Shown in pieces: positions 3,451-19,524 of a stretch of DNA of 64,000 nucleotides. The notes below the pieces were generated by a model, which did no database searches, was not told the origin of the DNA, and saw only the letters and a program-made list of their open reading frames with translations. The stretch lies in NCBI RefSeq assembly GCF_056746865.1, contig NZ_CM163382.1. One strand, written 5' to 3'. Numbering within the stretch: position 1 is the stretch's first letter; each line of letters opens with the position of its first letter. Both the position numbers and the translations under genes were made by a program.

Positions 3451-5889
3451 TTAAAAATCAGCCTGACTCGGGATCAGTTTTTGCCAGATAACTGAAACGT
3501 ATTTTGCCTGGTAACGGGCGTCATCAAGTGCATTATGGCGCTCACCTTCGAATGGAATAGCCGTTCTGGCATCGAAGTCTATGGCTTTCCCCAGCTCAAC
3601 GATTGTGCGTACATCTCGATCGTTGTAGTAACGCCACGGGCAGGGGATCCCCTGCCGTTCGTATGAACGGCGCAAAATCGTGTTGTCGAAGTTGGCTCCA
3701 TTTCCCCAGACCTGAACAAAAAATTCACCGGAGTTTTCGTCGATAAATTCCCGCAATTGTAACAGTGCATCATCTAACGGGATTTCATCGGTCATAATGG
3801 CAGATTGCGCTTCGCGTGATTGCTTAAGCCACCATTTAATGGTGTCCCGATCAATGACCCCGCCAGCAGTTTCCAGATCGATAGTCTTACTAAATTCCGG
3901 TCCCATATCTCCGGTTTGCGGATCGAAAAATATTGCACCTATTGAGATGATCGGGGCATCAGGATTTTTTCCCATGGTTTCAAGGTCGATCATTAGATGG
4001 TCACACGTCCTGCTGGTGGATGTGATAACGTGATGACCGTTCACCGTAATTAAGGGATCTGCCGTCTCGCCAGTTTCACTATCGCTGGCGTGATCCTGAG
4101 CGCTGCCAGCATTCTCCTTGTGTGGATGTTCAGCGCCTTCCATTTCCTTCGGATCATTTTCCTGAACTTCAACCTGATTCTCTTCATCGAATGTTTCCTG
4201 GTATGTTGCGTCGCCCATCACCGCGCCACAATCAGGGCAGTTGCCGCCGCCGGTCTGACCGCAGGCGGTGCAGATCTTTTCCGGTTCCTGTTGCACTACT
4301 GGTTCAGGTTGTTTCGTTTCTGGCTCGTTTTGTAACGCATTTGGGCTGTTTTGTTCCGCTTTCTGGTCGTTCTGTTCCGATTCTTGCTGGTTCTGGTTTA
4401 CAGAATCGCGGGTTTCAATCCCCTTTACCCATTTCGGATCATTCGGGTCGCTAATCCCTGCAACAAATTCTCCGCGAGAGGCAGCAAGCAACTTATCGGC
4501 GTCAGGCTGGCTGATATTGGCTGCCTGCATAATTTTGTTTACTTCGTCAGCGGTAACTTTTACCTGTGACTTGTCATCCAGCGGCTGCGGGTCCTGATGA
4601 TGTTCAACTGTATCCGCTGCCATTGTTTCAGCCGTTGCCTGTTCATCTGCCATTGCGCCAGATGGTTGCGGGTTATCTTCATCATTTTTTTCTTCTTCTG
4701 TTTTGCACTCAGCAGCCAGTCCGCCGTTAATTTCTTCCAGGATATCTTTTTCCGGTGTATGCCGGGCAGCCATGAGCGTTTCAGCTGTGGGATTCTCGTG
4801 ATCAGTTTCTGTCAGGTTGGCATTGATATACCCCTGAAGGCGCCCCGGGTAGTGATAAAACTCAGGGTGGGCGCTTCGGATAAGTGCAAAAATAGCTGCG
4901 CGGGAATAGTCCAGGATACCAGGGGTTGCGCGAAGTGCTGCGGACCATTCCCTGAACGGACTTTCTTTTTTCAGGACGATTTCTTTTGCGCGACGATAAA
5001 CGCTGCCCGGAATTTCATAAATATTAAAATCCATCGGAAGTGTGGCTGCTGCAATCTCCACATCCAGCGCATCGAAGGTGTGTACTAAATTCGGATTGCG
5101 ATCGGTTTTGTTCCCGCCACCGGCATTTGCACCGGAAGCCGTACGGGTGATACGCGAAACACGATTTCCTTTCATCCACTCTTTTGTCAGCAGACCCCGA
5201 TCAGTGTAATCAGCGTCCAGGTATGCCTCGAAAAAAGCAGTTATCAGTCCCAGGTCTGAATTACCGGGATTAGGGAAAACTTTGTCAGTGTCGCGTACCA
5301 GTTTGTGAAGGTCGCGAATCTCCAGCGGGTCGAGCAGCTTTGTTTTGTGAGAAATGGCCAGGGCAGTAACAGCCGGCAGTTCTTCCGCCCGTGCTATATG
5401 TAATGCCTGAAGTTCTTCCCGTGCAACGTGCGTTACTGGTTTTTCGCTGCTGTGTTGCGCAAGCCAGCGAATGGGCAGCTCCTGACCAGAAACCGGCAGG
5501 AGCATATTCTCCTCAATCTCCGTCATGTCTTCGCCGTTGACGTTGGTATTGTCAGTACTGGCTGGTTTCTCCTGCACGGAGGGAGAGGGCGCGATAAATA
5601 CCATTGTAATGCCATCTTCCCCGCCTTTTTCGTATCGGTTGCAGAATTCGGTATCAAACACGCCTTCAGGTGGAAGGTCATTCACAACGGGTAAATGGAC
5701 GCGAACGGGTTTTTTAAAGTCGTCTTCATCATAATCGTTGTCATCCATTGCGGTAATGCAGCGGGAGATGGCAACAGATAATTTTTTTGCTGTAGTCCAG
5801 TAAAAACCACCTTTAATTCCCAGACGTTTTCTGACTTTGTCATTTTTTGCTTCGCAATATAGCGCAAATTCTTCTTTATCAGTGCTCAT
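3451..5889 (-). CDS. Large prophage exonuclease-like protein (DEDDh-type 3'-5' exonuclease C-terminal domain, acidic linker, Cys4 zinc ribbon)
   Basis: 812 aa; C-terminal motifs [23 protein letters not shown] resemble DnaQ-like Exo I/II/III; CTACG...CPDCG zinc ribbon; position equivalent to recE/exo in lambdoid early-left operons. Confidence 0.6.
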
Positions 5890-11261: not shown

Positions 11262-12032
11262 ATGGAAACCGTATCTGACGCACTGAAAGCACTGAAAAAA
11301 GCCTCTTCACATGTGGTGGCAGCTCGCCTTGGAATCAGTCGTGAAGAGGCTGTCAACGAGCTGTGGGAACTCAAAAGAAATGGCGTCGTTGATAAAACTG
11401 GTCACACCTGGTTTCTGGCTGGCGAAGGTGAATCCCGGGTAACCGAAGAGCGGCCAGTAAAATCTGAAGCACAGGATATGCTGACCGGGGAGGTCGAACA
11501 AAAAGTTACCGCAGACATGATGATTGAGTTTATCGGTCAGGATGGGGCTAAAACGTGTGAGGAACTGGCGGGTAAGTTCGGTGTCAGTACTCGCAAGGTT
11601 GCTTCCACGCTGGCGGTGGTAACCGCAACGGGGCGGCTGGCACGCGTTAATCAGAACGGTAAATTTCGTTACTGCATGCCGGGCGATAATTTACCAGCAG
11701 AGCCGAAAGCCGCGCTGGTAACGGAAAGTGATGGTAAGGCCTTTCCTCAGCCAGCAGGTGCTGCGTTACCAGGCCGGGAAGCCGCAACACAGGAAGAAAT
11801 TAAAACAGAAACTGTGGCGGACATTGTGCAGTCGTTGCCATCGTTTACCGAAACGCAAGCAGATGAGCTGATTTTTCCGTCCCTGCGCAGGGCAAACCTG
11901 GCGCTGCGCAGGGCGAAAAGTGATGTTCAGAAGTGGGAGCGAGTCTGCGCCGCGCTGCGGGAGCTGAACAAGCACCGGGATATTGTTCGACAGATTACTG
12001 ATTCTTCCCGCCGTGTTGTATCGGAAAAGTGA
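11262..12032 (+). CDS. Hypothetical protein with two winged-helix-like repeats
   Basis: 256 aa; internal repeats AARLGISREEAVNELWELKRNGVV and LAGKFGVSTRKVASTLAVVTATGRLARV. Confidence 0.5.
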   Translation: METVSDALKALKKASSHVVAARLGISREEAVNELWELKRNGVVDKTGHTWFLAGEGESRVTEERPVKSEAQDMLTGEVEQKVTADMMIEFIGQDGAKTCEELAGKFGVSTRKVASTLAVVTATGRLARVNQNGKFRYCMPGDNLPAEPKAALVTESDGKAFPQPAGAALPGREAATQEEIKTETVADIVQSLPSFTETQADELIFPSLRRANLALRRAKSDVQKWERVCAALRELNKHRDIVRQITDSSRRVVSEK

Positions 12033-12047
12033 TTGCCGGAGGCGCTT

Positions 12048-12470
12048 ATGGCAAAAGTATTTACACAAGAAGAGCGGGAAAAAATTAAAGGGCAGGTTGT
12101 TGAACTTGTACGTCTGAGCGGTCGCGAGACGTTGCGGCAACTGGAAGCCAAGACAGGTGCGACAAGATATCTGATGAGTGTTCTCGCCAGAGAGCTGGTT
12201 GCCAGTGGCGATGTATACAACTCTGGTTACGGGTTATTCCCGTCTGAACAGGCGCGTAAGGACTGGCAAAACGCCCGCAAAAAACTCTCAAGGGCAAATC
12301 TGAAGAAACCATCTGTGGTTGATCCTGACCTTATCTGGCCATTACCAGACGGCGAAATACGCCGCTACGACAGGCGTCAAAACATAATCTGTAGCGAGTG
12401 CCGGAAGAGCGAAGCTATGCAGCGTGTACTGGCTTTCTATCAGGGTAATTTTCAGAAGGTGCTGTTGTGA
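12048..12470 (+). CDS. Hypothetical protein, putative wHTH
   Basis: ATG at 12048 with GGAGG RBS (track ORF starts at an upstream TTG, 12033). Confidence 0.5.
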   Translation: MAKVFTQEEREKIKGQVVELVRLSGRETLRQLEAKTGATRYLMSVLARELVASGDVYNSGYGLFPSEQARKDWQNARKKLSRANLKKPSVVDPDLIWPLPDGEIRRYDRRQNIICSECRKSEAMQRVLAFYQGNFQKVLL

Positions 12471-12575
12471 GCCAAATTAACAATCGGAACTTCGTGAAGA
12501 GAAAGCATAATCCAAATCTGAATAATTAAGTTCAGCACTGTAAATAAAATTTAATCCTTAACTGGAGGTATATCT

Positions 12576-12686
12576 ATGTCAAATACACAGAAAATTATTA
12601 ACACTGAAAAATATAACGAGTGGGTGAAAAATTCTCTGAGCAGATTTTTAAAATTACTGGCGACGAGAATGTGGCAAAAAATGAAT
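12576..12686 (+). CDS. Small basic protein (36 aa), hypothetical
   Basis: Manual translation MSNTQKIINTEKYNEWVKNSLSRFLKLLATRMWQKMN; GGAGG RBS 8 nt upstream; below track cutoff. Confidence 0.3.
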
Positions 12687-12819
12687 TAGAACCGTGGACA
12701 CCTGAAGGAAACGCACCAAATTATTGCTGGTGGGAGGTTGATCCGGTTGATGCTGCAAATGAAGCCATGAGTTACCACAACGATTAATGTCGGGAGGCCG
12801 CCCGAAAGGGCGGTAAGAA

Positions 12820-13038
12820 ATGACTACATTATTCAGAAAAGAATATCCGCAAAAAAGTAGGGCGACAGAATTTTTGTTTCTCATTCTGTTTATCGTATTG
12901 ATGATACCGATATCCCCTCTAATTTTTGTCTGGGCAATCGGGAAAATAATTGAGCCAGTTTCTGAATTGTATAACGACGTGGTGTGGGCGTCATTCAACA
13001 CACTGCACAATAAAATTAATCCGTATAAGGAAAACTGA
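12820..13038 (+). CDS. Small membrane protein, hypothetical
   Basis: 72 aa with one long hydrophobic segment; start preceded by GGAGG and a GNRA hairpin. Confidence 0.4.
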   Translation: MTTLFRKEYPQKSRATEFLFLILFIVLMIPISPLIFVWAIGKIIEPVSELYNDVVWASFNTLHNKINPYKEN

Positions 13039-13039
13039 T

Positions 13040-13243
13040 ATGGCAACTTTGACAAAAAAAGAACGGGCATGGTTGAACGAATTACAGGAAGTTCTTGATC
13101 GCTGTCCATCACCGAAAAAATTGGCTTTTACACCATTGGCGATAAAAGCATTTACCTGTATGACCTACGCCGCATGGATGAAATCATGGAGGCTCTTGAT
13201 AATCGTTCGTCGATGGATTGGTGTGTTGCTGTTCATGATATGA
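13040..13243 (+). CDS. Hypothetical small protein (67 aa)
   Basis: ATG overlapping the previous stop (TGATATG); internal Met of track ORF 12950..13243. Confidence 0.35.
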   Translation: MATLTKKERAWLNELQEVLDRCPSPKKLAFTPLAIKAFTCMTYAAWMKSWRLLIIVRRWIGVLLFMI

Positions 13244-13433
13244 ATGCAGGGTTTGATGAAAAGATTTTGTTCCCCTCATCAGTTGAAAGCACTGCGGGTT
13301 AAGGAGTAACACATGACCACTATTACCAAAGAACGTATTGAATTGTTCATTAAATTTTCAGGAGGCGGTACTGTGAGTGAAATTAGCTATCAGGCTTCAA
13401 TTACCGCTGGCATTCGCATCAAAGGAGAGGAGC

Positions 13434-13790
13434 ATGGAAATAAAACCAGAGGATGAGTTAAGCAATATCGTTTTATTTCCGGTAAAAGAGGATGACCCTC
13501 GTAATCAGGTTAATTTTCTTTATGAGCCATCGGAAAGACCATATTGTCATCACGCCTCTGTCCGGGTTGACGAAAAAGAGCGTCAGGTCCGCTGTAAAAT
13601 CTGCGGTGCAGTTGTGGAACCATTTGACTGGATGCTCTCTGTGGCGAAAAGAGAAACCAGACTGGCAGATGATGTAAGGCTCTTGCGTCAGGAGGAGCGG
13701 GAAAGGCGAAAAAATATAGAAAAGCTAATTCAGATTGAGCGTAACGCGAAAGCGCGGATACGCAGGGCGACAAAATCCAGAACTGAATAA
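13434..13790 (+). CDS. Hypothetical zinc-ribbon protein
   Basis: Start MEIKPEDE after AAAGGAGAGGAG RBS; CHH...CKICG motif; basic C-terminus. Confidence 0.45.
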   Translation: MEIKPEDELSNIVLFPVKEDDPRNQVNFLYEPSERPYCHHASVRVDEKERQVRCKICGAVVEPFDWMLSVAKRETRLADDVRLLRQEERERRKNIEKLIQIERNAKARIRRATKSRTE

Positions 13791-13883
13791 TTAAATTTAG
13801 CTCTGTTAAAAATTTAATCCTTAACCGGAGGGATTTCTGCACCCTCAGAACATCAGGAGGCCGCCCGAAAGGGCGGTAGTTAA

Positions 13884-14066
13884 ATGCGAAAGTTTAAAAT
13901 AATTATTGAAACGGGAATAGCCGGTGGAGATTTCGAGGATGAATTCGAAGTGGATGATGATGCGACGCCTGATGAAATACATGACGAAGCAAAAGATATT
14001 TTCTTTAACTACTGCAATTACTCATATCACGAAATAAAAGACGAAGAGGAAGAACAAAATGGCTGA
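13884..14066 (+). CDS. Small acidic protein, hypothetical
   Basis: 60 aa, highly acidic; start preceded by the second GGAGG/GNRA-hairpin module. Confidence 0.4.
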   Translation: MRKFKIIIETGIAGGDFEDEFEVDDDATPDEIHDEAKDIFFNYCNYSYHEIKDEEEEQNG

Positions 14067-14235
14067 TTTTGGTTCAACTAAATACAACGTCGGTTTTGAA
14101 GAATGGCATGAACTGTTAATGGACTATGCAGAGTTACGTGGTGGCAGTGCTGCTGATGCTGAAGCATGGCGTGATGATTATGAAGCAGGAAAAACTCCGG
14201 TCGAAGCATATTGTGATGAGTGGGGCGATGAATGA
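14059..14235 (+). CDS. Small acidic protein (58 aa), hypothetical
   Basis: Manual translation MADFGSTKYNVGFEEWHELLMDYAELRGG...; overlaps previous stop. Confidence 0.3.
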   Translation: MADFGSTKYNVGFEEWHELLMDYAELRGGSAADAEAWRDDYEAGKTPVEAYCDEWGDE

Positions 14236-14717
14236 GCGAGGTTAATTATCAGGAAGGGCATGAAACGGCGGGGCAAGCAAAAACAGTGGCATGGCGATAT
14301 CGCTACGTGAAAAAAAGGCGTTACGGACTTTCAGGGGAAGTAGTGGTCTGGTGACTGGAAATATGTACCGAAAAAAGAGGATTGTAACGACAGGCCGAAC
14401 TATGAAATTCAGGCCTTATTCACTGCCCCGCCAGTCCCGGTTACATCAGAAGAACTGGTTAAAGCTGTGCACTTTTATGAACAACTAAAATGCGAAAATC
14501 CACCAGCATCCGGAAACCTGATTACAGATTCCCAGATAAGGCAATGAGCTACCTGGCGCAGAACGGGCTGATAAGTATGGGGAATGTTTTACGATGAATA
14601 TTTAGACTAAAGAGTTTGTAACGCTATGTAAGTGATTTTTTCTGGTTTAGATATTTATATGTCCGGCTAAATTGAGGTGTGTTTAAATGTTATTGCACAT
14701 TGATTGTAGGGGGAATA

Positions 14718-14897
14718 ATGAAAAACGCATTGCAGTTTTTGTTTGTTGCGTTCTGGTTGTTCGCATCATGTATGCCCATCATCTTCACAGCAAGGTATAT
14801 GGAAAAAGTTGATGTTTTGATATTAATGTTTGGACATATAAATGCCCTTTTTTTAGGGGTGTTCATGGCGGTCATGTGCATTGAATACTGGCGGTAA
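14718..14897 (+). CDS. Small hydrophobic membrane protein, hypothetical
   Basis: Internal Met MKNALQFLFVAFWLF...; AT-rich surroundings. Confidence 0.3.
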   Translation: MKNALQFLFVAFWLFASCMPIIFTARYMEKVDVLILMFGHINALFLGVFMAVMCIEYWR

Positions 14898-15155
14898 ATA
14901 CAGCGAACGCCATTGGTTTAGTTGGATATTTACTGTGCCGGACAAAAACGGTTTGCGGGGAAATCTTAGTTAAGTAGAATGACTGCGGGTGCTTGAGGCT
15001 ATCTGTCTCAGGCATGAACACCAAAAGGCAGATAGAGAAAAGCCCCAGTTAACATTACGCGTCCTGCAAGACGCTTAACATTAATCTGAGGCCATATCTA
15101 TGCGACACATAGAGATTAGCCTCTTACGGACCGAAAGGTCAAGGAGAAGCAGGCT

Positions 15156-15311
15156 ATGAAGCAGCAAAAGGCGATGTTAATCGCCCTGATCGTCATCTGT
15201 TTAACCGTCATAGTGACGGCACTGGTAACGAGGAAAGACCTCTGCGAGGTACGAATCCGAACCGGCCAGACGGAGGTCGCTGTCTTCACAGCTTACGAAC
15301 CTGAGGAGTAA
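15156..15311 (+). CDS. hok: Hok/Gef-family type I toxin
   Basis: 51 aa MKQQKAMLIALIVICLTVIVTALVTRKDLCEVRIRTGQTEVAVFTAYEPEE, Hok-like TM helix plus CE(I/V)R motif; AAGGAG RBS; short overlapping upstream leader ORF (mok-like). Confidence 0.85.
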   Translation: MKQQKAMLIALIVICLTVIVTALVTRKDLCEVRIRTGQTEVAVFTAYEPEE

Positions 15312-15380
15312 GAGACCAGGCGAGGGGGAAATCCCTCGCCACCTCTGATGAGTCAGGCATCCTCAACGCACCCGCACTTA

Positions 15381-15407
15381 ACCCGCTTCGGCGGGTTTTG
15401 TTTTTTC
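15381..15407 (+). terminator. Intrinsic terminator after hok
   Basis: ACCCGC-ttcg-GCGGGT hairpin followed by TTTGTTTTTT. Confidence 0.6.
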
Positions 15408-15478
15408 CTGGCATTCTGGTTTACAATTCGCACGTCAGCCTGAACACCTGACACCTGCTGCGCCAGTAGAGAAAACAG

Positions 15479-15751
15479 ATGGCGCACAAAACCAAATTTC
15501 ACAATTCTGATACCGACCTTGCCATCCGGCATGGGCGGCGTTCACACGCATTTAAAACCGACTGGTACCAACACCCACCATGTACTGAAGAACAGGCCGA
15601 ATGGCTAATTCATAACTACCGCAGACGCGGATACGAGATTAAGAAAGCCCTCAGCCTCGATTATCGTCACTGGATAATCTATGTCAGGCTCCCTTATTCC
15701 GAACGCTCACCGCGCCCATCCCGCACATTCCAGCAACGCATCTGGAGGTAA
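15479..15751 (+). CDS. Hypothetical protein (90 aa), overlaps the DUF968 gene out of frame
   Basis: ORF overlapping 15681..16802 by 71 nt in another frame. Confidence 0.3.
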   Translation: MAHKTKFHNSDTDLAIRHGRRSHAFKTDWYQHPPCTEEQAEWLIHNYRRRGYEIKKALSLDYRHWIIYVRLPYSERSPRPSRTFQQRIWR

Positions 15752-18295: not shown

Positions 18296-18661
18296 ATGAT
18301 TGATGTCTTAGGGCCGGAGAAACGCAGACGGCGTACCACACAGGAAAAGATCGCAATTGTTCAGCAGAGCTTTGAACCGGGGATGACGGTCTCCCTCGTT
18401 GCCCGGCAACATGGTGTAGCAGCCAGCCAGTTATTTCTCTGGCGTAAGCAATACCAGGAAGGAAGTCTTACTGCTGTCGCCGCCGGAGAACAGGTTGTTC
18501 CTGCCTCTGAACTTGCTGCCGCCATGAAGCAGATTAAAGAACTCCAGCGCCTGCTCGGCAAGAAAACGATGGAAAATGAACTCCTCAAAGAAGCCGTTGA
18601 ATATGGACGGGCAAAAAAGTGGATAGCGCACGCGCCCTTATTGCCCGGGGATGGGGAGTAA
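18296..18661 (+). CDS. insC: IS2 transposase OrfA (InsC)
   Basis: [40 protein letters not shown]... matches InsC. Confidence 0.9.
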
Positions 18662-19524
18662 GCTTAGTCAGCCGTTGTCTCCGGGTGTCGCGTGCGCAGT
18701 TGCACGTCATTCTCAGACGAACCGATGACTGGATGGATGGCCGCCGCAGTCGTCACACTGATGATACGGATGTGCTTCTCCGTATACACCATGTTATCGG
18801 AGAGCTGCCCACGTATGGTTATCGTCGGGTATGGGCGCTGCTTCGCAGACAGGCAGAACTTGATGGTATGCCTGCGATCAATGCCAAACGTGTTTACCGG
18901 ATCATGCGCCAGAATGCGCTGTTGCTTGAGCGAAAACCTGCTGTACCGCCATCGAAACGGGCACATACAGGCAGAGTGGCAGTGAAAGAAAGTAATCAGC
19001 GATGGTGCTCTGACGGGTTCGAGTTCCGCTGTGATAACGGAGAAAAACTGCGAGTCACGTTCGCGCAGGACTGCTGTGACCGTGAGGCACTGCACTGGGC
19101 GGTCACTACGGGCGGCTTCAACAGTGAAACAGTACAGGACGTCATGCTGGGAGCGGTGGAACGCCGCTTCGGCAACGAGCTTCCGGCGTCTCCAGTAGAG
19201 TGGCTGACGGATAATGGTTCATGCTACCGGGCTAATGAAACACGGCAGTTTGCCCGGATGTTGGGGCTTGAACCGAAGAGCACGGCGGTGCGGAGTCCGG
19301 AGAGTAACGGCATAGCAGAGAGCTTCGTGAAAACGATAAAGCGTGACTACATCAGTGTCATGCCCAAACCAGACGGGTTAACGGCAGCAAAGAACCTTGC
19401 AGAGGCGTTCGAGCATTATAACGAATGGCATCCGCATAGTGCACTGGGTTATCGCTCGCCACGGGAATATCTACGGCAGCAAGCCAGTAATGGGTTAAGT
19501 GATAACAGGTGTCTGGAAATATAG
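18619..19524 (+). CDS. insD: IS2 transposase OrfB (InsD), DDE domain
   Basis: 301-aa ORF overlapping orfA in -1 frame, typical IS3-family frameshift arrangement. Confidence 0.9.

What the first reader, a model, noticed from the sequence alone, without database searches (positions are those of the whole stretch)
12510..13880. Duplicated ~55-bp intergenic module and GNRA-loop hairpins overlapping ribosome-binding sites
Two similar segments (12510..12565 and 13775..13832, both with CTGAATAATTAA...AAATTTAATCCTTAAC.GGAGG) each precede a GGAGG followed by the hairpin GCCGCCC-GAAA-GGGCGGT (12797..12814 and 13859..13876) only 5-7 nt upstream of a start codon (12820 and 13884). Neither hairpin is followed by a T-run, so they are unlikely to be terminators. 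They may be RNA-processing or translational control elements, or cassette boundaries marking where small genes were shuffled.
Basis: seen in the sequence. Interest (0 to 1): 0.45.

Follow-up and report, generated by a model that had tools for sequence, protein, structure and literature searches.

The report
Portable prophage gene linker with hairpin-bridged ribosome site
The two repeats are copies of a conserved intergenic linker found in prophages of about 44% of complete E. coli genomes; different small accessory genes are joined at it, and it ends in a ribosome-binding sequence, a very stable hairpin and then the start codon, which probably act together as a hairpin-bridged ribosome-binding site.

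Summary
The window, a Rac/Qin-type lambdoid prophage of E. coli, has two copies of a ~70-nt AT-rich module. It also has two copies of AGGAGG/GGGAGG followed by the hairpin CCGCCC-GAAA-GGGCGG, 5-6 nt before the ATGs at 12820 and 13884.

One correction: in copy A a frameshifted 70-codon gene lies between module and hairpin. In copy B they are contiguous.

The unit occurs at 3,466 places in 2,411 of 5,426 complete E. coli genomes. Among 201 IMG/VR copies, 13 upstream and 16 downstream flank types combine freely. Stx phage ArgO145 carries the reciprocal partner combination. So it is a mosaic joint, the "cassette boundary" reading.

The linker starts with CTGAATAATTAA, which has stops in all three frames. 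The strong SD lies 22-23 nt from the AUG, and the hairpin (-14.4 kcal/mol) reduces this to about 6-7 nt. The spacers have no SD of their own. Distant homologues of the downstream genes lack the linker and use ordinary SDs. This matches the split ribosome-binding sites of T4 genes 38 and 25, but that function is inferred, not shown.

Covariation is uninformative because the stems hardly vary. It is not a terminator, a nut site or any Rfam family. I rate it a new member of known kinds, of moderate interest.

The parts
12447..12485 (+). Repeat D3, copy 1, at the 3' end of the DUF977/Ren-like gene. It is a second homology patch: strain 146 joins this sequence directly to the region equivalent to 13353 onward.
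   Evidence: D3, 77% to 13353-13391; strain 146 lacks the equivalent of 12486-13352.
12506..12575 (+). Linker module, copy A. It holds the AT-rich stretch with CTGAATAATTAA (12518-12529, stop codons in all three frames, also the 5' half of the weak palindrome CTGAAT-AATTAA-GTTCAG), then AAATTTAATCCTTAAC, then SD1 GGAGG (12564-12568) 7 nt before the ATG at 12576.
   Evidence: (D2, D4).
12576..12787 (+). "Gene70" (phrog_4659, unknown function), frameshifted here: an A5 run at 12627-12631 where intact copies have A6. It is the only gene type found between module and hairpin, giving the "occupied" form of the linker.
   Evidence: PGAP: frameshifted; 39 occupied copies, a single flank cluster; intact copy in ArgO145.
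12792..12797 (+). SD2 of copy A (GGGAGG). Its last G is shared with the G.U closing pair of the hairpin.
   Evidence: -9.7 kcal/mol against the anti-SD.
12797..12814 (+). Hairpin A, G CCGCCC GAAA GGGCGG U: six G-C pairs, a G.U closing pair and a GAAA tetraloop.
   Evidence: -14.4 kcal/mol; pair probabilities 0.89-1.0 in context.
12815..13038 (+). 5-nt spacer AAGAA, then the DUF4014 gene (ATG 12820, 72 aa, phrog_1832). The spacer has no SD of its own.
13353..13391 (+). Repeat D3, copy 2.
13434..13790 (+). 118-aa gene (phrog_1621). Its stop codon, TAA at 13788-13790, is one of the three stops of the linker's CTGAATAATTAA.
13771..13838 (+). Linker module, copy B. CTGAATAATTAA lies at 13783-13794. 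The orphan SD1 GGAGGG lies at 13827-13832 and has no gene after it.
13828..13846 (+). Small hairpin of the "empty" form, GAGGG (13828-13832) paired with CCCTC (13842-13846). It sequesters the orphan SD1. An alternative pairing, AAUCCUU with AGGGAUU, fits equally well.
   Evidence: in the centroid structure; both alternatives are about 97.5-98% paired, with no covariation.
13855..13860 (+). SD2 of copy B (AGGAGG).
13860..13877 (+). Hairpin B, identical in sequence to hairpin A.
13878..14066 (+). 6-nt spacer AGTTAA, then the DUF7167 gene (ATG 13884, 60 aa, phrog_1997).

Best explanation
The repeats are two copies of a conserved, portable intergenic linker. It is used in arrays of small accessory genes in E. 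coli lambdoid prophages and Stx phages.

The linker has three working parts. It begins with an AT-rich stretch, CTGAATAATTAA, that carries stop codons in all three frames and ends the upstream gene. Its middle is AT-rich. It ends with a strong Shine-Dalgarno sequence immediately followed by a very stable 6-7-bp GC hairpin with a GAAA loop. The start codon of whichever gene follows lies 5-11 nt after the hairpin.

Shown here: the shared sequence is the patch at which non-homologous neighbouring genes are joined in many combinations.

Inferred: the exchanges happen by homologous recombination at this patch, by RecA or by the Rad52-type recombinases these phages carry.

Inferred from geometry and from precedent: on the mRNA the hairpin loops out 16-18 nt. 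The SD is 22-23 nt from the AUG in linear sequence, and looping out brings it to an effective 5-7 nt. That is a split (noncontiguous) ribosome-binding site of the kind proven for T4 genes 38 and 25. The linker therefore supplies a ready-made translation start to any gene placed behind it.
For: Mosaic joint:
- The unit occurs at 3,466 places in 2,411 of 5,426 complete E. coli genomes, with up to 7 copies per genome.
- Among 201 copies in IMG/VR contigs, 13 upstream and 16 downstream flank clusters combine freely. One upstream type is paired with 11 different downstream types.
- Similarity ends within a few nucleotides after the hairpin.
- ArgO145 has module-gene70-hairpin-DUF7167 and module(empty)-hairpin-DUF4014. 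That is the reciprocal of the window's arrangement.
- Among loci that share the DUF7167 gene, the 64-nt core has no column of high diversity (per-column diversity 0.25 or more), whereas about 12 of 150 columns in the adjacent coding sequence do.
- Real upstream genes use two of the three stop frames of CTGAATAATTAA.
- Rad52-like recombinases of lambdoid phages recombine short, diverged homologies, including with Rac and Qin (PMC3945230). Short conserved boundary sequences are an established proposal for how lambdoid mosaics form (PMC3029335, citing Clark 2001 and Susskind & Botstein 1978).

Split ribosome-binding site:
- AGGAGG or GGGAGG directly abuts the hairpin in about 90% of the 201 copies.
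- The distance from the hairpin core to the start codon is 6-11 nt in 173 of the 201 copies, across at least five unrelated gene families.
- The spacers have no anti-SD complementarity (-1.2 to +2.2 kcal/mol), with one exception (UGGAGAUAAUA, -6.4). The upstream SD gives -9.7.
- The hairpin is -14.4 kcal/mol and forms with probability about 1.0 in both window contexts.
- It is the only architecture of this kind in the 64 kb.
- Nine distant homologues of DUF4014 and DUF7167 lack both linker and hairpin: eight abut or overlap the upstream gene (37P2 has no annotated gene upstream), and the seven whose SD was scored give -7 to -11 kcal/mol at 5-9 nt from the start (the two unscored are near-identical to scored ones). 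They come from 933W, D6, g341c, epsilon15, ES18, HK225 and three Klebsiella phages.
- Precedent: in T4 gene 38 a hairpin reduces a 22-nt SD-AUG spacing to 5 nt, and mutations that destabilise the structure lower translation (PMC3014915, PMC7297116).
Against: - There is no direct evidence of translation, RNA structure or recombination at this element.
- Covariation gives no support. The stems are about 97% paired but almost invariant, the observed scores are matched by 64-152 of 500 shuffles, and there is only one fully compensatory G-C to A-U change.
- In the hairpin core, 16 changed cells preserve pairing and 12 break it. That is only mildly better than a transition-biased expectation, and cells are not independent events.
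- The GNRA loop is not strictly kept: GGCA and UAAA variants exist.
- The high conservation could reflect recent spread and homogenisation by recombination rather than selection on RNA function.
- In about 8 of the 201 copies the hairpin is followed by non-coding sequence instead of a start codon, so the hairpin travels with the upstream unit whatever follows it.
- One downstream family (MEITKERLL) has its own GGAG in the spacer.
- How so many unrelated genes first acquired the same 5' linker, with breakpoints within a few nucleotides of each other, is not explained.
Confidence: 0.55

Rival explanations
1. The unit is a passive homology patch only. It is a shared intergenic sequence that persists and spreads because recombination happens in it. 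The hairpin has no RNA-level role, or is mildly inhibitory, and the downstream genes start translation without an SD from their A-rich spacers.
For: No significant covariation. The element is confined to E. coli prophages and is very uniform, which fits recent spread. The hairpin also occurs without an adjacent start codon.
Against: The strong SD is kept exactly at the 5' foot of the hairpin in about 90% of copies. The hairpin-to-AUG distance is held at 6-11 nt across unrelated genes. The core varies less than neighbouring synonymous sites. Homologues without the linker all have an ordinary strong SD, so these genes appear to need one.
Confidence: 0.2
2. The unit is an mRNA processing and stability element. 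RNase E cuts in the AU-rich part of the linker. The GC hairpin then sits near the new 5' end and protects the downstream cistron, or it acts as a 3' barrier protecting the upstream one. Each accessory gene would thus get its own mRNA half-life.
For: An AU-rich single-stranded stretch lies next to stable stem-loops. The element is intercistronic inside long early operons. There is no terminator tail.
Against: Nothing here tests it. In the occupied form the hairpin lies only 9 nt after the stop codon of a translated gene and has no AU-rich leader. The idea does not explain the conserved SD abutting the stem or the tight spacing to the AUG. The stem is too short (6-7 bp) for RNase III.
Confidence: 0.1
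3. The hairpin is a shared operator for an RNA-binding regulator. This could be an N-type antiterminator (a boxB-like site) or a translational repressor that covers the hairpin between SD and AUG, putting several accessory genes under one control.
For: The hairpin has a GC stem with a GNRA-type loop and is conserved in sequence, not only in structure. The same hairpin fronts many different genes.
Against: It has a 4-nt loop on a 6-7-bp stem, not the 5-nt GNRNA loop on a 5-bp stem of lambda boxB (established knowledge). The boxA-like GCTCT in copy B is not conserved; most copies have GCACT, GTTCT or GTGTT. The copies lie kilobases from the immunity region, and there is no copy near the cI/cro promoters. 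The loop varies to GGCA and UAAA. No candidate binding protein was identified.
Confidence: 0.07
4. The unit is a site-specific cassette-exchange site, analogous to an integron attC or a homing-endonuclease target. A dedicated enzyme would cut or recombine at the hairpin, which would explain why the breakpoints lie at one position.
For: Similarity breaks sharply at the 3' foot of the hairpin for many unrelated right-hand flanks. An HNH endonuclease gene lies near a copy in ArgO145 and next to a DUF4014 homologue in HK225.
Against: No recombinase or nuclease is consistently linked to the unit, and the window has none nearby. No attC-type R/L core sites are evident on inspection of the sequence. 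The left-hand breakpoints are spread over several positions in the module. For DUF4014 the joint lies inside the first two codons, not at the stem. HK225 has the HNH gene but no linker.
Confidence: 0.04
5. The hairpins are intrinsic terminators or attenuators that divide up transcription of the accessory genes.
For: The stem-loop is GC-rich and stable.
Against: There is no U-run on either strand after the stem, and the terminator scan finds nothing at either site. The hairpin sits between an SD and its start codon inside an operon.
Confidence: 0.03

Closest known systems
Split (noncontiguous) translation-initiation regions of phage T4 genes 38 and 25 (Gold 1988; Nivinskas 1999; Malys & Nivinskas 2009, as reviewed in PMC3014915 and PMC7297116)
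   Same: The SD is too far from the AUG in linear sequence: 22-23 nt here, 22 nt in gene 38 and 27 nt in gene 25. A stable hairpin lies wholly between SD and AUG. The residual spacing is 5-7 nt here, 5 nt in gene 38 and 11 nt in gene 25. There is no other SD in the spacer.
   Different: The host is a different phage group (temperate lambdoid prophages) and the hairpin sequence is unrelated. Here the arrangement is not tied to one gene: it belongs to a mobile linker placed in front of many unrelated genes and repeated within one genome. The function is untested here.
Conserved boundary ("linker") sequences at mosaic joints of lambdoid phages (Susskind & Botstein 1978; Clark et al. 2001, as cited in PMC3029335); homology-driven mosaicism by Rad52-like recombinases (PMC3945230)
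   Same: It is a short conserved intergenic sequence flanked by non-homologous genes in different combinations. It occurs in lambdoid phages and in defective prophages of the Rac/Qin type.
   Different: This particular sequence was not found in the searchable literature. It has internal functional anatomy (three-frame stops, SD, hairpin). It occurs both in the pL-distal ea region of Stx phages and downstream of the replication genes in this prophage. It is present as direct repeats within a single prophage.
Lambda-type nut sites (boxA + boxB)
   Same: A GC-stemmed hairpin with a GNRA-type loop on an early-operon transcript.
   Different: The loop and stem dimensions are wrong, there is no conserved boxA, the position is wrong (not promoter-proximal), and there are multiple copies, each directly in front of a start codon.
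Promoter-early stem-loop (PeSL) cassettes of T4-type phages (Arbiol et al. 2010; recalled from memory, not checked with the tools)
   Same: Repeated intergenic regulatory motifs containing a stem-loop that flank small accessory genes and are proposed to mediate modular shuffling.
   Different: PeSLs carry an early promoter. No promoter is detectable in this linker. The stem-loop here sits between SD and AUG, not after a gene.

Membership tests
Split (noncontiguous) ribosome-binding site, T4 gene 38/25 type | The SD is separated from the start codon by more than a functional linear distance (over about 13 nt) | tested here: met
   22 nt (12798-12819) in copy A and 23 nt (13861-13883) in copy B lie between GGAGG and ATG.
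Split (noncontiguous) ribosome-binding site, T4 gene 38/25 type | A stable hairpin is contained entirely between the SD and the start codon | tested here: met
   -14.4 kcal/mol; pair probabilities 0.82-1.0 in 120-nt contexts; present in the centroid structures.
Split (noncontiguous) ribosome-binding site, T4 gene 38/25 type | The spacing left after removing the hairpin falls in the functional range (about 5-11 nt) | tested here: met
   5-7 nt in the window. 6-11 nt from the core in 173 of the 201 related copies.
Split (noncontiguous) ribosome-binding site, T4 gene 38/25 type | There is no alternative, properly spaced SD | tested here: met
   Spacer to anti-SD energies are -1.2 to +2.2 kcal/mol, against -9.7 for the upstream SD. 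The one exception is UGGAGAUAAUA, which is not in the window.
Split (noncontiguous) ribosome-binding site, T4 gene 38/25 type | Destabilising the hairpin lowers translation and compensatory changes restore it | not testable with these tools
   Needs reporter fusions or toeprinting. Natural covariation is uninformative.
Lambdoid mosaic boundary / linker sequence | A short conserved sequence lies between segments that are non-homologous in different genomes | tested here: met
   13 by 16 flank clusters in many combinations; reciprocal arrangement in ArgO145.
Lambdoid mosaic boundary / linker sequence | Exchanges actually occur by homologous recombination within the sequence | not testable with these tools
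   Inferred from the pattern and from PMC3945230. No crossover was mapped here.
Intrinsic (Rho-independent) terminator | A GC-rich stem-loop is followed by a U-tract | tested here: not met
   The tails are UAAGAAAUG and UAGUUAAAUG. The scan reports no terminator at either site.
Lambda-type nut site | A boxB hairpin (5-bp stem, 5-nt GNRNA loop), preceded by a conserved boxA, just downstream of pL or pR | tested here: not met
   4-nt loop on a 6-7-bp stem. The boxA-like GCTCT is not conserved. The copies are more than 3.5 kb from the cI/cro region and no copy lies there.
Any curated RNA family (Rfam 15) | A covariance-model match | tested here: not met
   No match overlaps 12500-13900 even at E up to 10. 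The only strong match in 11500-15500 is sok at 14987-15158.
Integron attC-like recombination site | R''/L''...L'/R' core sites and an associated integron integrase | not tested
   No core sites are evident on inspection and no integrase gene is adjacent in the annotation. No formal attC model was run.

The most novel reading that the evidence does not exclude
The linker is a naturally evolved, standardised "expression adaptor". It has a three-frame stop to end whatever lies upstream and an insulated SD-hairpin-AUG start to express whatever lies downstream. It would be selected because it makes any captured ORF expressible, and because as a repeated homology patch it turns the accessory region of E. 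coli prophages into a cassette array driven by homologous recombination. That would be a functional analogue of integron cassettes without a dedicated recombinase.
Probability: 0.2. Interest if true: 0.65.

Novelty: new member of a known kind. Interest (0 to 1): 0.4.

Why it matters
If the hairpin does bridge the SD and the AUG, this would be a very widespread natural example of a split ribosome-binding site outside T4. It occurs in thousands of copies across E. coli, and it is modular rather than tied to one gene. That is relevant to gene annotation, because start sites here have an SD that looks too distant. It is also relevant to RBS-strength predictors and to the design of context-insulated translation starts.

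As a recombination patch it gives a concrete, countable case of the long-debated "linker" model of phage mosaicism. One 60-110-nt sequence joins many accessory genes in Stx phages and in cryptic prophages. The exchange of accessory (moron-like) genes between Stx phages and resident defective prophages could be traced through it.

Tried and rejected
- **Rfam.** A scan of 11500-15500 at E up to 10 found nothing at the element.
- **Promoters and terminators.** The scan found none in the module or at the hairpins.
- **Covariation.** I tested three helices and one alternative helix on 81 distinct copies. The result was not significant because the sequences are too uniform. I did not build a covariance model, since the result would have been circular.
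- **Literature.** A full-text search for the hairpin sequence gave 0 papers. Concept searches returned only general work on mosaicism and on the T4 split ribosome-binding sites.
- **Species-representative genomes.** The scan for the 23-mer gave only two "Collinsella" MAG contigs. These are misbinned E. coli prophage DNA, 91-96% identical to the window at 45-47% GC.
- **Close relatives of DUF7167.** The IMG/VR search returned 80 identical copies, and all 76 whose upstream sequence could be read carry the hairpin, so it was uninformative. The tblastn route to distant homologues was the useful one.
- **boxA/nutL resemblance.** Copy B's GCTCTGTTAAAAATTTAA resembles lambda boxA/nutL. I rejected this because GCTCT is not conserved across the family.
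- **Small ORF across the hairpin.** A stop codon follows the stem in one frame, so I considered this. I rejected it because that frame is closed by TAA at CCTTAAC and has no start codon (read).
- **P2-like phage contig.** The exact 21-mer in L002 lies inside the coding sequence of a 218-aa ORF that follows a capsid-like gene. It is coincidental.
- **Origin of the 14-nt filler.** I could not decide whether the filler of the empty form is a deletion remnant of gene70.
Full report
**What the window is.** The 1.7 kb around the finding is 100% identical to the chromosome of E. coli CFSAN061770. The RefSeq annotation places it in a Rac/Qin-type lambdoid prophage. Upstream lie ydfC/ydfB, a LexA-family repressor, cro, ydaT and replication genes including a DnaC-like ATPase, DUF1627 and DUF977. 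Then comes a run of small ORFs, followed by hokD, DUF968 and rusA. The finding lies in the run of small ORFs. All of these belong to PHROG families of unknown or accessory function.

**Checking the observation.** Both repeats are real.
- The module copies are 12506-12575 and 13771-13838. They fall into two blocks of 81% and 90% identity with a 2-nt indel between them (D2 and D4).
- The SD+hairpin copies are 12790-12815 and 13853-13878, identical at 25 of 26 bases (D5).
- The 17-mer hairpin occurs exactly twice in 64 kb even when 3 mismatches are allowed. The chance expectation is 0.11.
- The hairpins lie at 12797-12814 and 13860-13877. The start codons follow after 5 and 6 nt. There is no T-run and no terminator call.
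- A scan of the whole window, both strands, for [quoted passage not shown] returns only these two sites.

In copy A the module's own GGAGG (12564-12568) serves a 70-codon gene (12576-12787). That gene is frameshifted here by the loss of one A from an A6 run. The SD+hairpin follows that gene. In copy B only 14 nt (13839-13852) separate the module from the SD+hairpin.

**How widespread the unit is.** The 116-nt copy-B unit matches 3,466 places in 2,411 of 5,426 complete E. coli genomes. Almost all are chromosomal, with up to 7 per genome. It also matches 21 phage records, mostly Escherichia and Stx phages. An exact 23-mer scan of one genome per species across GTDB found only two contigs labelled Collinsella. 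They are 91-96% identical to this prophage at 45-47% GC, so they are misbinned E. coli DNA. The element is therefore essentially a feature of E. coli prophages.

**It is a mosaic joint.** Two IMG/VR scans gave about 210 loci. The consensus unit is CTGAATAATTAAATTYAG...AAATTTAATCCTTAACCGGAGGGATTTCTGCACCCTCAGAACATCAGGAGG-CCGCCCGAAAGGGCGG-T. It is followed within 6-11 nt by the start codon of unrelated genes:
- DUF7167 (MRKFKIII);
- DUF4014-like (MTTLFRKEYP, MKHYLEKNYP);
- Ead/Ea22-like (MTELTKEQLI, MAELTKEW, MEITKERLL);
- MQEIKENIRQ;
- MLTLKHFIDIP.

I clustered the flanks of 201 copies. This gave 13 upstream and 16 downstream types in many combinations, and one upstream type is joined to 11 different downstream types. 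Of the 201 copies, 160 have the "empty" form and 39 the "occupied" form. The occupied form always holds the same gene70 family.

Stx phage ArgO145 gives a direct illustration. It has module-gene70-hairpin-DUF7167 and module(empty)-hairpin-DUF4014. That is the reciprocal of the window's pairing. In ArgO145 the array lies in the pL-distal ea region, while in the window it follows the replication genes.

A neighbouring joint uses another patch. E. coli strain 146 lacks the equivalent of window 12486-13352, and the junction is the 39-nt D3 repeat.

**Anatomy of the linker.** CTGAATAATTAA holds TGA, TAA and TAA, one in each reading frame. Real upstream genes terminate in two of these frames: 67 distinct contexts use the TAA at offset 5 and 13 use the TAA at offset 9.

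The 3' end is a strong SD. AGGAGG or GGGAGG is present in about 90% of copies, and its last G is shared with the G.U closing pair of the hairpin.

In the empty form the orphan first SD can pair in a small hairpin, GAGGG with CCCTC. An alternative pairing fits equally well.

**Is the RNA structure supported?** Thermodynamically, yes. The hairpin is -14.4 kcal/mol and its pair probabilities are about 1.0 in 120-nt contexts. Each region folds better than its shuffles, with z-scores of -2.0 and -3.5.

Evolutionarily, the evidence is inconclusive. On 81 distinct copies the stems are about 97% paired but nearly invariant. The covariation measures are reached by 64-152 of 500 shuffles. There is one fully compensatory change, GCCACCC/GGGTGGT. 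In the core, 16 changed cells keep pairing through G.U and 12 break it. The loop is GAAA in most copies but GGCA or UAAA in a few.

Among loci that share the DUF7167 gene, the 64-nt core has no column of high diversity (per-column diversity 0.25 or more), against about 12 of 150 in the adjoining coding sequence. This shows constraint or homogenisation but does not say which.

**Most likely mechanism.** Two things can both be true.

First, the unit is the homology patch at which accessory genes are exchanged. The pattern is shown here. The mechanism is inferred: homologous recombination by RecA or by phage Rad52-type recombinases, which act on short diverged homologies including those with Rac and Qin (PMC3945230). 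Conserved boundary sequences are an established proposal for lambdoid mosaicism (PMC3029335, citing Clark et al. 2001 and Susskind & Botstein 1978).

Second, the 3' end has the geometry of a split ribosome-binding site.
- The SD lies 22-23 nt from the AUG.
- A hairpin takes up 16-18 of those nucleotides and leaves 5-7.
- The spacers have no anti-SD complementarity (-1.2 to +2.2 kcal/mol), against -9.7 for the upstream SD.
- This is the arrangement shown experimentally for T4 gene 38 (22 nt reduced to 5) and gene 25 (PMC3014915, PMC7297116).

A natural comparison supports functional equivalence. Nine distant homologues of DUF4014 and DUF7167 were examined, from 933W, D6, g341c, epsilon15, ES18, HK225 and three Klebsiella phages. 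All lack both the linker and the hairpin. Eight abut or overlap the upstream gene (37P2 has no annotated gene upstream). The seven whose SD was scored give -7 to -11 kcal/mol at 5-9 nt from the start. The translational function is nonetheless inferred, not shown.

**Rivals.** I considered five alternatives:
- a passive homology patch with no RNA role (0.2);
- a processing or stability element (0.1), which is untestable here, with RNase III unlikely for a 6-7-bp stem;
- an operator for an RNA-binding regulator or a boxB-like site (0.07), for which the dimensions, the lack of boxA and the position all fail;
- site-specific cassette exchange (0.04), for which no enzyme is linked and the left-hand breakpoints are scattered;
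- a terminator (0.03), which fails for lack of a U-tract.

**What remains unexplained.** I cannot say how many unrelated genes first acquired the same linker with right-hand breakpoints within a few nucleotides of each other. I also cannot say whether the empty form derives from the occupied form by deletion or the reverse. About 8 of 201 copies have non-coding sequence after the hairpin.

**Verdict.** The "cassette boundary" reading is well supported, and the "translational element" reading is plausible and now specific. The element is not in Rfam, and its sequence is not in the searchable literature. Both of its aspects belong to known kinds, so I rate it a new member of known kinds, of moderate interest.

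Noticed in passing
window 14987-15311: A complete hok/sok-type toxin-antitoxin locus. The sok RNA matches Rfam RF01794 at 106.7 bits (14987-15158), next to hokD (15156-15311).
   Followed up: no
window 15320-15401: A weak, sub-threshold match to the isrK Hfq-binding sRNA (26 bits, E=0.009). It ends in an intrinsic-terminator-like hairpin at 15380-15397, just downstream of hokD.
   Followed up: no
window 12576-12787, 13040-13302, 14232-14597: Three of the small accessory ORFs in this array are frameshifted pseudogenes according to PGAP. The first has lost one A from an A6 run at 12627-12631. The prophage is decaying in this region.
   Followed up: partly
window 12447-12485 and 13353-13391: A 39-nt direct repeat (77% identity). 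E. coli strain 146 lacks the equivalent of 12486-13352, with this repeat at the junction. This makes it a second recombination patch, and it fuses the 3' end of a DUF977-like gene to a different 5' part at 13313.
   Followed up: yes
window 12518-12535 and 13783-13800: The stop-codon stretch is also a near-perfect AT-rich palindrome, CTGAAT-AATTAA-(A/G)TT(C/T)AG. A sequence-divergent version of the linker keeps CTGA...TCAG. It could be a weak RNA hairpin or a protein-binding site; this is unresolved.
   Followed up: partly
related loci, e.g. L124 2364-2481 and L151 299-416; variants listed: Some copies replace the loop of the small GAGGG/CCCTC hairpin with G-runs of variable length (GGAGGGGGGGCTGCACCCTC, GGAGGGGGGGGGAGGCGCCCTC) while keeping the stem ends. 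This looks like homopolymer slippage inside the linker.
   Followed up: no
L082 1180-1300, L092 12039-12160, L140 11033-11150: In about 8 copies the hairpin is followed by 80 nt or more of AT-rich non-coding sequence (for example CGGTTCCATTGTTTAACTATCTAATATTGTGCTAAATC...) before the next gene. It may be a different cassette with its own promoter.
   Followed up: partly
L002 11456-11476: The exact 21-mer GGAGGCCGCCCGAAAGGGCGG occurs inside the coding sequence of a 218-aa ORF (...QAQEAARKGGN...) that follows a capsid-like gene in a P2-like phage contig. This is a coincidental coding match, not the linker.
   Followed up: yes
L213, L214 (JAIHTM010000290.1, JAIJJM010000167.1): Two short contigs binned as Collinsella sp. 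MAGs are 91-96% identical to this E. coli prophage and have 45-47% GC. They are likely binning contamination in public MAGs.
   Followed up: yes
PP818812.1 11316-12584 (hits H13, H68, H132, H187): A record named "Actinobacillus phage vB_Apl-pPE4" carries the linker (92.5% identity) with DUF7167 and DUF4014 genes typical of E. coli lambdoid prophages. The host assignment looks doubtful.
   Followed up: no
window about 18296-19524 (L001 11897-13125): An IS3-family transposase is inserted in the prophage downstream of the rusA/DUF1133 genes.
   Followed up: no
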